Positions 50,930 through 57,663 of a stretch of DNA of 64,000 bases are shown piece after piece. Made by a program: the position numbers and the translations under genes. The notes under the pieces were generated by a model that saw only the letters and a program-made list of their open reading frames with translations, ran no database searches and was not told the DNA's origin. Source of the DNA: an uncultured Aquimarina sp. GTDB taxonomy: Bacteria; Bacteroidota; Bacteroidia; Flavobacteriales; Flavobacteriaceae. Location: contig CALFCI010000017.1 of NCBI GenBank assembly GCA_937951135.1, positions 7,378 through 71,377 of the forward strand, written 5' to 3'. How positions within the stretch are numbered: position 1 is the first letter of the stretch; every line of letters starts with the position of its first letter.

Positions 50930-52054
50930 TTACAATGTATCAATCACAGTACTTAATCGTGTTGTAATCTCATCGATAGCTCCTATTCCATCAATACCAA
51001 AATACTTATCTTGTTTTTGGTAATATTCTTTTAAAATAGCAGTTTCATCATAATATACTTTGATTCGATTTCGGATCACACTCTCATCGGCATCATCGGC
51101 ACGACCAGAAGTTTTACCGCGCTCTAACAAACGTTGCACCAATACTTCATCATTTACCTCTAACGCAACCATAGCACTTACCGAGACACCTTTAGCACTC
51201 AATAAATTCTCTAAAGCATCTGCTTGTGCCGCAGTTCTTGGAAAACCATCAAAAATAAAGCCTTTCGCTTCAAGGTTTTTCTCTACCTCCGCATTCAGCA
51301 TATTAATCGTTACTTCATCTGGAACTAATTGTCCCTTATCAATATATGACTTTGCTAATGTACCCAACTCGGTAGCATTTTTAATATTATATCGAAATAC
51401 ATCACCTGTAGAGATGTGCACTAAATTATAAGTATCCTTTAACACTTCTGCTTGTGTTCCTTTTCCTGCTCCCGGAGGGCCAAATAAGACTAAATTTGTC
51501 ATCTTTTCTGATTTTAATTGATAAACTGATGTAAGATTACGACCTAATCCATTATAATCCAATCCATATCCTACAATAAACCGATCTGGAATATTCATCC
51601 CTACATAATCGATTTTATATTTTTTAGTATACACTTCTGGTTTCAGAAATAACGAAGCAACCTTTACCTGCTTACAATTTTTATTCCCTAATATCTCCAA
51701 TAAAGCTTCCAAGGTAGTACCTGTATCGATAATATCTTCTAATACGATAACTGTTCTATTGACTACACTTTGCTCTAATCCCAAAATTTCCTGCACATCT
51801 CCTGAAGATGTGACTCCATCATAAGACTTAAGTTTTATAAAACTAACCTCACAATCGTATTGAAACCGTTTTAAAATTTCAGACACAAACATAAATGAGC
51901 CATTTAACACCCCTATAAACACAGGTACTTCATTTCTAAATTCTTGATTCAATTGCGCTGCAATCTCATCTATAACTTTAGAAACCTTTTCTTCAGAAAG
52001 ATAAGGCACAAATTTTAAGTCGTGCAGGGTAATTGTTTTATCCAATATTGACAT
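50930..52054 (-). CDS. adk: Hypoxanthine phosphoribosyltransferase - adenylate kinase fusion
   Basis: HPRT motifs (GVLNGS, VLEDIIDTGTT, FIVGYGLDY) in frame with Adk motifs (GPPGAGKGT, HISTGD, DGFPRT); start moved to MSILDK downstream of the -7 element TATCTTTG (52082-52089). Confidence 0.9.
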   Translation of the reverse strand: MSILDKTITLHDLKFVPYLSEEKVSKVIDEIAAQLNQEFRNEVPVFIGVLNGSFMFVSEILKRFQYDCEVSFIKLKSYDGVTSSGDVQEILGLEQSVVNRTVIVLEDIIDTGTTLEALLEILGNKNCKQVKVASLFLKPEVYTKKYKIDYVGMNIPDRFIVGYGLDYNGLGRNLTSVYQLKSEKMTNLVLFGPPGAGKGTQAEVLKDTYNLVHISTGDVFRYNIKNATELGTLAKSYIDKGQLVPDEVTINMLNAEVEKNLEAKGFIFDGFPRTAAQADALENLLSAKGVSVSAMVALEVNDEVLVQRLLERGKTSGRADDADESVIRNRIKVYYDETAILKEYYQKQDKYFGIDGIGAIDEITTRLSTVIDTL

Positions 52055-52321
52055 GACGTAATACACATTTTTTAAAGTTTGCAAAGATAGTAATTCCAAA
52101 ATGAAGATCATATAAGAACACCACAACTTATCGACGTAAAGTAACATCAAATGGTGTCAAAATAAAAATTTTAATGCCATTCAAGAAGCACATACTGCCC
52201 AAAACAGAAACAGAAACCCTATAAAACCTTGAAATGGTATCAACTAAACAACACTTTATAGTGCTTTTTCAATAGGAAAAAATTAATTTTGCAGCATTAT
52301 TTATTTTTTGAAACACCCATA

Positions 52322-53594: not shown

Positions 53595-54086
53595 ATGAGT
53601 ACAGTAGGAATAATAATGGGAAGCACTAGTGACATGCCTATCATGGAACAGGCAATTACACTGTTAAAAAGTTTTGATATTAACGTTGAAGTTGATATTG
53701 TATCTGCACATCGCACTCCAGAAAAACTATTTGACTACAGCAAAAATGCACATACTAGAGGGTTTAAAGTGATCATAGCTGGTGCAGGTGGCGCAGCACA
53801 TTTACCTGGAATGGTAGCTTCTTTATCGCCATTACCGGTAATAGGTGTTCCCGTAAAGTCCCGCAACTCTATAGACGGCTGGGACTCTATACTTTCCATC
53901 TTACAAATGCCCGGAGGTGTTCCTGTAGCTACCGTAGCATTAGACGGAGCATTGAATGCGGGGATTTTAGCCGCTCAAATCATCGGATCATCGGATCCTG
54001 TAATATTAAACAAAATTATCGCTTATAAAGAAAGGTTGAAATCCAAAGTAATTGAAGGTGCGAAAAAAGTACAGTCCCAGTTTTAG
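53595..54086 (+). CDS. purE: N5-CAIR mutase
   Basis: IIMGSTSD, SAHRTP, AGAGGAAHLPG, QMPGGVPVATV. Confidence 0.97.
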   Translation: MSTVGIIMGSTSDMPIMEQAITLLKSFDINVEVDIVSAHRTPEKLFDYSKNAHTRGFKVIIAGAGGAAHLPGMVASLSPLPVIGVPVKSRNSIDGWDSILSILQMPGGVPVATVALDGALNAGILAAQIIGSSDPVILNKIIAYKERLKSKVIEGAKKVQSQF

Positions 54087-54323: not shown

Positions 54324-54455
54324 AAAACAAAAAGCGCCCTTCAATGAAGGACGCTTTTCTGTAATTTGGTCTTACAGTAGAAAATAACAATATTTATTAA
54401 CCAACTTAAATATATTACACAAAAATTCAATGTAAGACCAGTACTCTTAAAACCT
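54324..54455 (-). ncRNA. Candidate sRNA (unit 0) with UUGGUUA loop
   Basis: -7 element TACCTTTG (54460-54467); perfect stem TGGTCTTACA/TGTAAGACCA; terminator AAAAGCGTCCTTCA-T-TGAAGGGCGCTTTTT. Confidence 0.6.
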
Positions 54456-54631
54456 GAAACAAAGGTAAAACCTTACTTTGATTACGCAATACATATACCC
54501 GTAAAATATTTCACTTTTCGACAAAATACATAAAACAAGGTCAAAATACACAATTTTATCATTTTTTTAGATTTATTTCAAGATCGCTCTTCCTATTTTT
54601 TTTCACTTACAGCAGAAGAACGCTGTAAAAA

Positions 54632-54748
54632 CAAAAAAAGCGCTACAAAAAATGTAGCGCTTTTGATATGTTTGATCTTTACAAAGAAAAAGAAATTGAC
54701 ATTCATACCCCTAAGATGACAACTCTATGTTTAGATTTCTTTGGCCAG
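54632..54748 (-). ncRNA. Candidate sRNA, triplicated copy 1
   Basis: TAGTATTG -7-like box at 54751-54758, ~115-nt conserved body, terminator with long U-tail. Confidence 0.6.
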
Positions 54749-55002
54749 ACCAATACTAATAAACCTATAGTAAATTTATATAGTATGTGGCTAAAACACA
54801 TCAAACGAATTGGCAATAAATTAACATTATCGGCAAAAAACACAGTATTTCGACAAAAAACACAGTACCCCTATAGTACCACCCCCTTAAAGAACAAATT
54901 ACATCTCCATGAATACTTCATTAGTGCAAAATCTAATTTTTAAATATATTCCAGTAGTACTCTTCCTCTTTTTCTCATTTACAGCAAAGAACACTGTAAA
55001 AA

Positions 55003-55118
55003 CAAAAAAAGCGCTACAACAAGTGTAACGCTTTTGAGATGTTTGATCTTTACAAAGAAAAGAAATTGACATTCATACCCCTAAGATGACAACTCTGTGT
55101 TTAGATTTCTTTGGCCAG
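55003..55118 (-). ncRNA. Candidate sRNA, triplicated copy 2
   Basis: As copy 1; -7-like box at 55121-55128. Confidence 0.6.
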
Positions 55119-55369
55119 ACCAATACTAATAAACCTATAGTAAATTTATGTAGTATGTGACTAAAACACATCAAACGAATTCGTAATAAACTAACATTAT
55201 CGACAAAAAACACAGTATTTCGATAAAAAACACAGTATCGCTATAGCTCCCCTTAAAAAACAAATTACATTTCCAGAAACACTTCATTAGTGCAAAATCT
55301 AATTTTTAAAATGTATTCCAGTAGTACTCTTCCCCTTTTTTCATTTACAGCAAAAGAACACTATAAAAA

Positions 55370-55485
55370 CAAAAAAAGCGCTACAATAAGTGTAGCGCTT
55401 TTGATATATTTGATCTTTACAAAGAAAAGAAATTGACATTCATACCCCTAAGATGACAACTCTGTGTTTAGATTTCTTTGACCAG
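55370..55485 (-). ncRNA. Candidate sRNA, triplicated copy 3
   Basis: As copy 1; -7-like box at 55488-55495. Confidence 0.6.
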
Positions 55486-55644
55486 ACCAATACTAATAAA
55501 CCTATAGTAAAACTATGTATTATGTGACTAAAACACATAAAACGAATTGGTGATAAAACTAGTATTATCGATAAAAAACACAATATTTCGATAAAAAACA
55601 CAGCATAGCTATAGTAACAACATTAAGAAACAAATTACATCTCC

Positions 55645-57663
55645 ATGAACAACCCATTAGTACAAAAATTTGACAGTGCCCCCTTTTCTAAAATAACAAC
55701 TGCCCATTTCTTGCCCGCAATACAACATGCAATTACTCTGGCTAAAGAAGAAGTTGCAGCTATCGTTTCAAACACAACAGCCCCTTCTTTTGAAAACACC
55801 ATTGAAGCATTGGATTATAGTGGTGAATTATTGGACAGAGTAACCAGTATCTTTTTTAATCTAAATAGTGCAGAAACCAATGAAGAGATTCAAAAAATAG
55901 CACAAGAGGCTTCTCCGATACTTTCAGAGTTTTCTAATGATATAGTACTAAACCCTGAACTTTTTAAAAGAGTTAAACAAGTATATGAACAAAAACAAGA
56001 GCTTGACCTCTCTATAGAGCAACATACCTTACTTGACAAACGCTATAAATCCTTTTCTCGAAATGGAGCTAACCTTTCTGACACCGATAAAGGGACACTG
56101 CGAAAAATAGATAAAGAATTATCACAACTAGGATTACAGTTTGGAGAAAACATACTAGCCGAAACCAATGCTTTTGAACTTTTGCTTACTGATCCTGCAG
56201 ATCTGGCTGGACTTCCTGAAGGCGCAAAAGAAGCCGCAAAAGCATTAGCACAATCCAAAGACAAAAAGGGCTGGTTGATCACCTTAGATTATCCTAGCTA
56301 TATCCCATTTATGACGTATGCAGATAATAGATCCCTGAGAAAGCAGCTTGCTATAGCTTTTGGCGCCAAGGGATTTCAAAATAATGCTTTGGACAATCAA
56401 AAAATTGTCATAAAAATCACCACACTACGGTATCAAAGATCGAAATTGCTAGGCTATGCTTCTCATGCAGATTATGTATTAGAAGAACGCATGGCAGGTA
56501 CTCCACAACAAGTGTTTTCTTTTTTAAATGAAATCTTAGAAAAGGCTAAGCCAGCAGCCACGGAAGAGTTTAAGCGCTTGAGTGCTTTTGCTAAAGAACT
56601 GGATGGCATTGACCAATTACAAAAATGGGATGGCACCTATTATTCTGAAAAATTAAAACAAAAACTTTTCCAACTAGATGACGAACAATTGAAACCCTAT
56701 TTTCAATTAGAGAATGTTATCGATGGAGTATTTACCATTGCAACAAAATTATACGGCTTACACTTTACAGCAACGGACAAAGTAGACACTTATAATGAAG
56801 AAGTTAAAACCTACAATGTAACCGACAAAGACGGTAATTTTATTGCCTTATTTTATGCTGATTTTCATCCAAGACCCGGTAAACGAAATGGCGCATGGAT
56901 GACCTCTTATAAATCTCAAATGATTAAGAATGGTAAAAACATAAGACCACATGTATCTATCGTTTGCAATTTCACCAAACCAACACCTAGCAAACCTTCG
57001 TTACTTACGTTTAATGAAGTCACTACGCTATTTCACGAATTTGGACATGCACTACACGGCATGCTAGCCAACACCACCTATTCTGGTTTATCCGGCACTA
57101 GTGTATATTGGGATTTTGTAGAACTTCCAAGTCAAATTCTAGAAAACTGGTGTTATGAAGAAGAAGCATTGCAACTGTTCGCAAAACATTATGAAACTGG
57201 TGCTACACTACCTATGGAGCTCATTCAAAAAATAAAAGACTCCGCTACATTTCAACAAGGTATGGCTACATTACGCCAATTAAGCTTTGGATTATTAGAC
57301 ATGTCTTGGCATGCCTCAGATCCTTCAAAAACTACAGATGTTAAAACTCATGAAAAAAATGCTTTTTCTGGAACTTCATTATATCCAGATGTAGCCGAAA
57401 ATTGTATGAGCACTTCGTTCTCCCATATTTTCCAGGGCGGGTACTCTTCTGGATATTACTCTTATAAATGGGCAGAAGTATTGGATGCCGATGCTTTTGC
57501 ATATTTTAAAGCACAAGGTATTTTTAATACCGAAGTTGCCACAAAGTTCAAGAAACATGTATTATCAAAAGGAGGCACAGAACACCCAATGGTACTCTAC
57601 AAACGTTTTAGAGGTCAAGAGCCTAAACCAGACGCTTTATTAAAGAGAGCTGGACTGATTTAG
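55645..57663 (+). CDS. M3 metallopeptidase (peptidyl-dipeptidase Dcp-like)
   Basis: TLFHEFGHALH, DFVELPSQ, KRNGAWM, YYSYKWAE. Confidence 0.95.
   Translation: MNNPLVQKFDSAPFSKITTAHFLPAIQHAITLAKEEVAAIVSNTTAPSFENTIEALDYSGELLDRVTSIFFNLNSAETNEEIQKIAQEASPILSEFSNDIVLNPELFKRVKQVYEQKQELDLSIEQHTLLDKRYKSFSRNGANLSDTDKGTLRKIDKELSQLGLQFGENILAETNAFELLLTDPADLAGLPEGAKEAAKALAQSKDKKGWLITLDYPSYIPFMTYADNRSLRKQLAIAFGAKGFQNNALDNQKIVIKITTLRYQRSKLLGYASHADYVLEERMAGTPQQVFSFLNEILEKAKPAATEEFKRLSAFAKELDGIDQLQKWDGTYYSEKLKQKLFQLDDEQLKPYFQLENVIDGVFTIATKLYGLHFTATDKVDTYNEEVKTYNVTDKDGNFIALFYADFHPRPGKRNGAWMTSYKSQMIKNGKNIRPHVSIVCNFTKPTPSKPSLLTFNEVTTLFHEFGHALHGMLANTTYSGLSGTSVYWDFVELPSQILENWCYEEEALQLFAKHYETGATLPMELIQKIKDSATFQQGMATLRQLSFGLLDMSWHASDPSKTTDVKTHEKNAFSGTSLYPDVAENCMSTSFSHIFQGGYSSGYYSYKWAEVLDADAFAYFKAQGIFNTEVATKFKKHVLSKGGTEHPMVLYKRFRGQEPKPDALLKRAGLI

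What the first reader, a model, noticed from the sequence alone, without database searches (positions are those of the whole stretch)
54586..55667. Tandemly triplicated, self-contained small-RNA gene divergent from an M3 peptidase
Seen: three ~370-bp units. On the minus strand each reads 20-bp-phased boxes, then TAGTATTG (a variant of the Bacteroidota -7 element TAnnTTTG), then a ~115-nt body, then a GC hairpin with a long U-tail. The body is nearly invariant between copies, while the terminator loop and spacers vary. It can fold with CAAAGAAA pairing to UUUCUUUG and UCAU to AUGA, exposing CUUAGGGGU. Units 1 and 2 end with a decayed copy of the peptidase start region (CAAATTACATCTCCATGAA..CATTAGT.CAAAA), which marks the duplication breakpoint. 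Inference: this is a dosage-amplified regulatory RNA that I cannot match to a family I know. An 8-codon ORF (MNVNFFSL) exists in copies 2 and 3 but is frameshifted in copy 1, which favours an RNA function.
Basis: partly seen in the sequence, partly recalled or inferred. Interest (0 to 1): 0.85.

Follow-up and report, generated by a model that had tools for sequence, protein, structure and literature searches.

The report
Triplicated small RNA facing peptidase promoter
Three tandem copies of a conserved, structured small-RNA gene with no Rfam match sit beside a peptidase gene in a marine bacterium; the RNA likely overlaps the peptidase's predicted leader head-to-head and is predicted to pair with the start regions of other mRNAs.

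Summary
The triplication is real. The units differ by about 10%, and each of the two junctions lies on its own single-copy contig. Each unit encodes a predicted ~135-nt minus-strand RNA ('A'): unpaired 5' leader, ~35-bp hairpin with a GGGGUA loop, and terminator. A occurs at this locus in 47 of 60 genomes drawn from the same genus (Aquimarina), as a single copy in 45. Its stems covary, G-U pairs favour the minus strand, and the small ORF is not conserved.

So the predicted dcp leader is antisense to 87 nt of copy 3.

All three RNA bodies are preserved (4 of 97 columns variable against 62 of 271 outside), even copy 2, which lost the dcp box. That favours a dosage-selected trans function. One candidate target keeps sites for both seeds in most A-bearing relatives, but genome-wide target enrichment failed. 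No Rfam match and no RNA data.

The parts
53595..54086 (+). purE, left neighbour; convergent with the RNA genes
   Evidence: PF00731; adjacent in most relatives
54326..54455 (-). sibling small RNA 'B' (~130 nt, predicted): leader AGGUUUUAAGAGUA, long hairpin with UUUAAGUUGGUUA loop, terminator 54329-54359
   Evidence: fold z -5.4; core present at this locus in 56 of 60 relatives; model R2 122 bits
54460..54467 (-). -7 box of B (TACCTTTG)
54564..55669 (.). whole tandem triplication (units about 54564-54932, 54933-55299, 55300-55669)
   Evidence: junction contigs in run X1
54630..54766 (-). RNA A copy 1 (predicted), terminator stem 54636-54664
54667..54674 (+). copied dcp-sense -7 box TATGTTTG in the linker of copy 1; now faces a decayed dcp start
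54771..54778 (-). -7 box of A1 (TAAATTTA; TTTG in 46 of 48 homologous units)
54825..54860 (-). direct-repeat TCG(A/G) boxes at about -67 and -87 of A1, predicted regulator site
   Evidence: same positions upstream of A and B in relatives
54895..54931 (+). decayed copy of the dcp start, junction 1
55001..55136 (-). RNA A copy 2 (predicted), terminator stem 55007-55035; no private change in the body
55038..55045 (+). broken dcp-sense box (GATGTTTG) in copy 2
55141..55148 (-). -7 box of A2 (TAAATTTA)
55195..55230 (-). direct-repeat boxes of A2
55261..55297 (+). decayed copy of the dcp start, junction 2
55368..55503 (-). RNA A copy 3 (predicted), in the ancestral position next to dcp; terminator stem 55374-55402
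55405..55412 (+). likely dcp promoter -7 box TATATTTG, inside the linker of A3
   Evidence: same place in 42 of 47 A-bearing relatives; replaced elsewhere when lost
55417..55644 (+). predicted 228-nt dcp 5' leader; 55417-55503 is antisense to A3
   Evidence: inference and the -12 to -5 position of the box (PMC9723704)
55508..55515 (-). -7 box of A3 (TAGTTTTA)
55563..55598 (-). direct-repeat boxes of A3, lying inside the predicted dcp leader
55645..57663 (+). M3 peptidase (Dcp/OpdA-like), 672 aa
   Evidence: PF01432; closest NCBIfam models oligopeptidase A and Dcp, both under cut-off

Best explanation
The three units are tandem copies of an Aquimarina-specific small-RNA gene with no Rfam match, whose predicted ~135-nt RNA likely works twice: it would overlap the predicted dcp leader head-to-head in cis, and its two exposed G-rich seeds are predicted to pair with C-rich patches just upstream of start codons of other mRNAs. 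Shown by sequence comparison: promoter box, covarying hairpin, terminator, minus-strand polarity, conserved leader and loop, a conserved dcp-sense box inside the linker, two successive old duplications, and preserved bodies. Inferred: (1) an unknown regulator binds the -87/-67 direct repeats and switches on A and B; (2) transcription of A3 runs against the dcp transcript over 87 nt and lowers or tunes dcp expression, by interference or by an antisense duplex; (3) the leader AGGUUUAUUAGU and the loop GGGGUA pair with translation-initiation regions of mRNAs, several for secreted proteins; (4) copies 1 and 2 are kept because they raise the dose of the trans-acting RNA without being tied to dcp.
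For: Structure: 96.3% of cells paired and 12 of 23 pairs with changes on both sides, 0 of 500 shuffles as high, slid controls 40-52%. In an arm-swap test the own arm beat the row median in 47 of 48. Mean probability unpaired is 0.79 for the leader and 0.76 for the loop. Strand: G-U 32 against A-C 6 in two hairpin helices, and the minus strand is more stable in 42 of 50. Conservation: leader 0.94 and loop 0.89 against 0.62 and 0.51 for the unaligned flanks. Cis overlap: the linker box is present in 42 of 47 A-bearing relatives; none of these 42 has another TAnnTTTG within 205 nt of the ATG, whereas 3 of the 5 that lost it and 9 of 11 genomes without A do (Fisher 6e-4 and 1e-8, kin not independent). 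The box is kept in two genomes whose leader and loop are swapped and in one decayed A; by inspection it is lost in 3 of 4 dcp-distal duplicates. Trans function: copy 2 lost the box yet has no private body change. A 174-aa protein with a signal-peptide-like start and an HExxH motif carries TACCCCTA before its ATG in 14 of 15 A-bearing relatives, and a leader-complementary site in the best 2% of background in 13 of 15; 2 genomes without A have neither. In this genome the two-site pattern occurs twice in all, both times at start codons: a 2950-aa secreted-type protein and a Ser/Thr kinase. Precedent: GibS pairs with one initiation region through two seeds (PMC11697453).
Against: No transcript was observed. 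Genome-wide target enrichment failed. Leader, loop and two-site patterns were not above reversed controls (25 matches against about 43 by my sum). Duplex energies at 2458 start regions did not beat the controls. The two-site pattern lay at a start codon in 12 of 42 places against 2 of 41 for a permuted control, but only 3 genes against 2 remain once the 4 discovery genes are removed. The best target was chosen after the fact, its carriers are mostly close kin, the two A-less genomes are also the most distant, and in this genome its site is degenerate (leader 75th percentile, loop 9th). The atpC site is not conserved. The DUF1800 site fades with distance. Modelling the full RNA on the target paired only the leader. 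The order of the two sites makes simultaneous pairing by one molecule geometrically awkward. Gene conversion between neighbours could also keep the bodies alike. The dcp promoter rests on a -7 box alone.
Confidence: 0.55

Rival explanations
1. A is a protein-binding (sponge or decoy) RNA. The conserved leader and the GGGGUA loop are sites for an RNA-binding protein, and extra copies titrate more protein.
For: A long rod with a conserved apical loop and variable stem sequence. No genome-wide complement enrichment. Recurrent copy-number gain: A x2 in 2 relatives, B x3 in Aquimarina sp. W85.
Against: Only one loop motif per molecule and no conserved GGA repeats. Siblings with the same scaffold carry different loops (A, B and a third variant). 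One mRNA carries complements, not copies, of both motifs.
Confidence: 0.2
2. The element acts only in cis, as an antisense switch or structured leader of dcp, and the extra copies are neutral leftovers homogenised by gene conversion.
For: The conserved dcp-sense box inside A and its turnover pattern. The RNA genes lie next to dcp throughout the genus.
Against: G-U asymmetry places the structure on the minus strand. Cis pairing needs no conserved seed. Spacers between copies have drifted 10-20% while the bodies have not, also in the copy without the box. B has no such box yet is more conserved.
Confidence: 0.15
3. The unit is a short mRNA for a peptide starting at the AUG of GGGGUAUG.
For: The AUG is present in 47 of 50 aligned units.
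Against: The frames run from 3 codons to beyond the terminator with unrelated sequences, and copy 1 is frameshifted. The AUG pairs in the apical stem.
Confidence: 0.02
4. The triplication is an assembly artefact or a strain chimera.
For: G000 is an incomplete (78%), 164-contig assembly. Only one run holds the stretch, and it may be the source.
Against: The copies differ by about 10%. Two distinct junction contigs (54750-55071, 55120-55438) match without a difference at depths 17.8 and 22.9, like the flanks at 20.7 and 22.8.
Confidence: 0.02

Closest known systems
FopS and GibS sRNAs of Bacteroides thetaiotaomicron (PMC11697453; passages read)
   Same: Same phylum; sigma-ABfr-type promoters; single-stranded 5' seed; multicopy family with a proposed dosage effect; pairing near start codons; GibS uses two seeds on one initiation region.
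   Different: No Rfam match. FopS is a single-stranded stretch plus terminator, whereas A has a ~35-bp hairpin with a loop motif. The copies here are local tandem duplicates, and A contains an opposing promoter box.
Rfp18 of Flavobacterium psychrophilum (PMC9723704; section 20 and supplementary rows read)
   Same: Flavobacteriaceae sRNA with a loop seed that acts on metalloprotease mRNAs. Its third stem-loop contains GUUGGUUA, the core of sibling B's loop.
   Different: 97 nt, several short hairpins, different locus (about 284.7 kb against purE at 2.44 Mb). It lacks A's leader and GGGGUAUG. The purE-dcp1 spacer of that species is 143 nt, transcribed through, and holds a Flavo-1 hit instead. 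The shared 8-mer concerns B, not A.
Sibling sRNAs such as Qrr1-5, OmrA/OmrB, PrrF1/2, and RsaE with exposed C-rich motifs (recalled, not from a call)
   Same: Paralogous, co-regulated copies; tandem arrangement; short exposed seeds that read initiation regions.
   Different: Other phyla, no sequence match. The seeds here are G-rich, which would mirror the lack of Shine-Dalgarno use in Bacteroidetes (PMC6847099, abstract).
cis-antisense RNAs with head-to-head 5' overlap (general class, recalled)
   Same: Predicted 87-nt overlap with the dcp leader from facing promoters.
   Different: A also has conserved seeds and extra copies uncoupled from dcp.

Membership tests
any Rfam 15 family | score at or above the gathering threshold | tested here: not met
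   best hit MicX 26.3 bits against 75, mostly the terminator; 0 hits in 6 homologous loci
bacterial small non-coding RNA gene | own promoter and intrinsic terminator in the same orientation | tested here: met
   TAnnTTTG in 46 of 48 units; terminator 99.6% paired; sequence-level only
bacterial small non-coding RNA gene | conserved structure with compensatory changes | tested here: met
   the lower stem is misregistered by MAFFT and was left out of the pair count
bacterial small non-coding RNA gene | no conserved reading frame | tested here: met
bacterial small non-coding RNA gene | transcript detected | not testable with these tools
   no RNA holder listed
trans base-pairing sRNA | conserved unpaired seed | tested here: met
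trans base-pairing sRNA | conserved complementary sites in target mRNAs | tested here: inconclusive
   one gene in 14 of 15 and 13 of 15 A-bearing relatives; no genome-wide enrichment
cis-antisense RNA of dcp | overlap with the dcp transcript | tested here: inconclusive
   conserved opposing -7 box with compensatory turnover; 5' ends not mapped
Rfp18 | Rfp18 sequence and multi-hairpin structure with GGUUGGUUA seed | tested here: not met
   A lacks the seed and the structure (compared by eye, no alignment run)
FopS/GibS | R1 seed in a single-stranded 5' part directly followed by a terminator | tested here: not met
   no such Rfam hit and a different architecture; the R1 letters themselves were not seen
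CsrB/RsmZ-type sponge | several GGA loops (recalled) | tested here: not met
   a single loop, GGA not conserved
LytTR-regulated promoter | direct repeats upstream of the promoter bound by a LytTR protein (recalled) | not testable with these tools
   boxes at -87/-67; 10 LytTR matches in the genome; no link shown

The most novel reading that the evidence does not exclude
The purE-dcp spacer of Aquimarina is a nursery for a modular sRNA scaffold: a fixed leader-rod-terminator chassis with an opposing dcp promoter built into its linker. It multiplies by tandem duplication and gains new targets by swapping the apical loop (GGGGUA, AAGUUGGUUA, GGAAGGUCGAUGG). Its G-rich seeds read C-rich patches before start codons in a phylum without Shine-Dalgarno use. 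This window catches the first stage: three selected copies, one already freed from dcp.
Probability: 0.25. Interest if true: 0.72.

Novelty: new variant of a known kind. Interest (0 to 1): 0.55.

Why it matters
Of flavobacterial sRNAs I found one with a tested function, Rfp18. This locus gives two apparently undescribed, genus-wide RNA families in culturable Aquimarina species, with exact predicted 5' ends, seeds, a cis partner (dcp) and one named candidate target, so the mechanism can be tested directly. It also offers a natural series for how sibling sRNAs arise: single copy, tandem copies, loop-swapped variant, decay and loss. If the pairing model holds, it shows how sRNAs recognise initiation regions where ribosomes ignore Shine-Dalgarno sequences.

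Tried and rejected
TAGTATTG as promoter: rejected. Peptide: rejected. The 91-aa plus-strand ORF 54668-54943 has no Pfam match and overlaps the RNA gene; I take it as spurious. Rfam: nothing at gathering level. A outside the genus: model R1 gave 3 weak hits in 140 family genomes (41-46 bits), which on inspection did not show A's leader or loop; only 24 candidates per genome were scored, so absence is not shown. The exact B core in 200 family genomes matched in 26; the 25 outside the genus showed no sRNA context. A longer B pattern over all GTDB genomes gave 88 stretches; of the 80 listed, 71 are titled Aquimarina, 6 are unclassified Flavobacteriaceae or Bacteroidia records, and 3 look like chance. 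Target enrichment tests were negative; atpC was rejected. No clear genome-wide 20-bp peak for the boxes with a loose matrix. Expression: no RNA holder listed. The window's own body pattern was not found in JGI metagenomes. Earlier scan findings: three look-ups, nothing shown. Literature searches listed no paper on an Aquimarina sRNA or this locus; the library lacks most subscription papers. The careful tree did not finish; the quick tree was used.
Full report
Observation. Between purE (53595-54086) and an M3 peptidase gene, here called dcp (55645-57663), lie three tandem units spaced 370 and 367 nt apart. They are 89.7-91% identical, and the 78% complete assembly has no other full copy. Contigs of run X1 cover the two junctions separately (54750-55071 and 55120-55438) without a difference and at the depth of the flanks (17.8 and 22.9 against 20.7 and 22.8). 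That run may be the source of the assembly, but tandem junctions that differ from each other are not what a collapsed or chimeric assembly gives. The two junctions differ from each other at 27 of 233 columns, less than either differs from the outer flanks, and they share derived changes in the decayed dcp start. This points to two successive duplications, both old. The RNA body varies at 4 of 97 columns, the rest at 62 of 271 (p about 1e-5).

Range. I took the region upstream of dcp from 60 genomes drawn from the window's genus. Named records with the same locus are Aquimarina, and a quick tree of partial dcp proteins places the window on an early branch of a 61-row clade. The element, 'A', is present at this locus in 47 of 60 genomes, single in 45 and double in 2. 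Two genomes carry a variant with another leader and loop, and 11 show none; some of those 11 are incomplete or have short contigs. A sibling, 'B', lies between A and purE in 56 of 60 and in the window at 54326-54455. B is triplicated in Aquimarina sp. W85. The 11-row basal clade has B but not A. A and B share leader type, basal stem, terminator and promoter layout. Their similarity without terminators beat 996 of 1000 shuffles for the window pair and 962 of 1000 for a pair from relatives, so paralogy is likely but not proven. No convincing A was found outside the genus.

Anatomy. A TAnnTTTG box stands about 4 nt upstream of AGGTTTATTAG in 46 of 48 homologous units, and this box lies at -12 to -5 in F. 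psychrophilum (PMC9723704, passage). In the window all three boxes end in TTTA. The predicted RNAs start at 54766, 55136 and 55503. Each has an unpaired 14-nt leader, an irregular ~35-bp hairpin topped by GGGGUA, a short linker and a terminator. Over 50 aligned units, 96.3% of cells in 23 named pairs are paired and 12 pairs change on both sides; no shuffle reaches this, and slid structures fall to 40-52%. The lower stem was left out of that count because MAFFT misregisters it. An alignment-free arm-swap test covers it: -16.4 kcal/mol for own arms against -11.2 for foreign arms, with the own arm better than the row median in 47 of 48. G-U outnumbers A-C 32 to 6 in the two counted hairpin helices and 30 to 0 in the terminator, which fixes the minus strand. 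The ORF from the loop AUG has no conserved length or sequence. Direct-repeat boxes sit at about -87 and -67 for both A and B. Similar pairs followed by a -7 box about 50 nt later occur at a few other intergenic sites of this genome. The regulator is unknown; a LytTR protein is a recalled guess (10 matches in the genome).

The embedded dcp promoter. Read on the dcp strand, A's conserved linker is TATATTTG, a consensus -7 box 3 nt past the terminator hairpin. It is there in 42 of 47 A-bearing relatives, and none of these has another such box within 205 nt of the ATG. Of the 5 that lack it, 3 have a new box nearer the ATG, as do 9 of 11 genomes without A. It survives in both loop-swapped genomes and in a decayed A in A. 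addita. In the window's 1.56-kb spacer the only two plus-strand boxes are in the linkers of copies 1 and 3; copy 2 has lost the first T. I infer a 228-nt dcp leader antisense to the first 87 nt of A3, with A's regulator boxes inside that leader. In F. psychrophilum the 143-nt purE-dcp1 spacer is transcribed through (supplementary rows), so in Aquimarina the RNA genes and their terminators would cut the operon and dcp would need this promoter. This rests on a motif and its turnover, not on mapped 5' ends.

Targets. A search for the leader complement before ATG turned up a site followed, unasked, by the loop complement. The gene encodes a 174-aa protein with a signal-peptide-like start and an HExxH motif, with no Pfam match; Atlas neighbours include SprT-like and phage metallopeptidase clusters. 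It is found in 18 of 61 genomes. Among the 15 A-bearing relatives, 14 have TACCCCTA and 13 have a leader site in the best 2% of this genome's 2458 start regions. The 2 A-less genomes have neither, and this genome's own copy is degenerate. A response-regulator gene keeps TAATAAACCT before its ATG in 3 of 3 genomes examined. In this genome the two-site pattern occurs exactly twice, before a 2950-aa secreted-type protein and a 1355-aa kinase; their conservation was not tested. Against this, every unbiased test was negative. Pattern counts were not above reversed controls. Duplex energies did not beat the controls. The two-site pattern lay at starts in 12 of 42 places against 2 of 41 for a permuted control, but that is 3 genes against 2 once the 4 discovery genes are removed (two known start-site places dropped by my centring filter were added back, one duplicate place was not fetched, and one control place was not printed). 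Trans pairing is therefore the best guess, not a result.

Mechanism. The most likely reading is a regulated sRNA with a cis effect on dcp and trans pairing at initiation regions, amplified here for dose. The main argument that the extra copies serve the trans role is copy 2, which lost the dcp box and kept its body intact. Gene conversion could mimic this. All three copies have the non-consensus TTTA box, so amplification may offset a weaker promoter; that is speculation.

Comparison with what is known. There is no Rfam family. It works most like FopS/GibS of Bacteroides (PMC11697453, passages only) and Rfp18 of F. psychrophilum (PMC9723704: passages, section 20 and six searches in supplementary tables). 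It is a member of neither; only sibling B shares Rfp18's GUUGGUUA. I did not see that paper's figures or SI Appendix D10-D11, which list Rfp homologues and could bear on B. For the lack of Shine-Dalgarno use I saw the abstract of PMC6847099. Searches listed no paper on this RNA.

Verdict. A real, apparently undescribed sRNA family caught in a tandem amplification, with a likely antisense overlap to dcp and a plausible but unproven trans targetome. New variant of a known kind; interest 0.55.

Noticed in passing
L486-L514, spacer upstream of dcp in other Flavobacteriaceae genera (e.g. L505:1309-1395, minus): A different ~80-nt sRNA-like unit on the same strand: usually a TAnnTTTG-like box, short hairpin (often GAGUGACUAACUC or GAGYUGGUUACUC), conserved UUGAUUAAUAGC or UUGUUAAUAGC, terminator. 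Seen in 19 of 29 loci, with a second similar unit in L489; no Rfam hit at gathering level in 20 loci. Link to B is weak (R2 E 0.01). It may be a family-wide undescribed sRNA.
   Followed up: partly
L081:241-369 (+) and L082:2260-2390 (-): Variant at A's position with B's leader, a new loop (UUGGAAGGUCGAUGG) and A's linker and terminator; in L082 the B copy has lost the leader.
   Followed up: partly
window 54462-54477 and relatives: Near-palindrome AAGG-n5-CCTT overlapping B's -7 box, almost invariant across the genus; possible repressor site, absent from A's promoter.
   Followed up: no
G000 C71, C56, C1, C69, C134, C103: Intergenic box pairs with 20-bp spacing; at C71, C56, C1 and C69 a -7 box follows 47-51 nt later as at A. 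Downstream genes mostly begin with signal-peptide-like sequences. Possible regulon.
   Followed up: partly
L012:1500-1650: The same box pair between a response-regulator-like gene and rpsF (both recognised by eye), followed by a short stretch containing UUGGGGUGAG; possibly another small transcript.
   Followed up: no
L229 (G000:C132) and L147: The candidate target gene lies between a glutamate-racemase-like gene and a convergent LytTR response regulator with its sensor kinase.
   Followed up: partly
window 54609-54630, 54978-55001, 55345-55367: A second small hairpin just past each terminator, intact in units 1 and 2 and weakened in unit 3.
   Followed up: no
window 50930-52150 (-): One ORF joins a phosphoribosyltransferase domain and adenylate kinase.
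   Followed up: no
L194, L202 and other loci: In other genera the complement of B's loop, TAACCAACTTAAAT, sits directly before apparent start codons, in keeping with AACCAAC-type sites in flavobacterial initiation regions.
   Followed up: no
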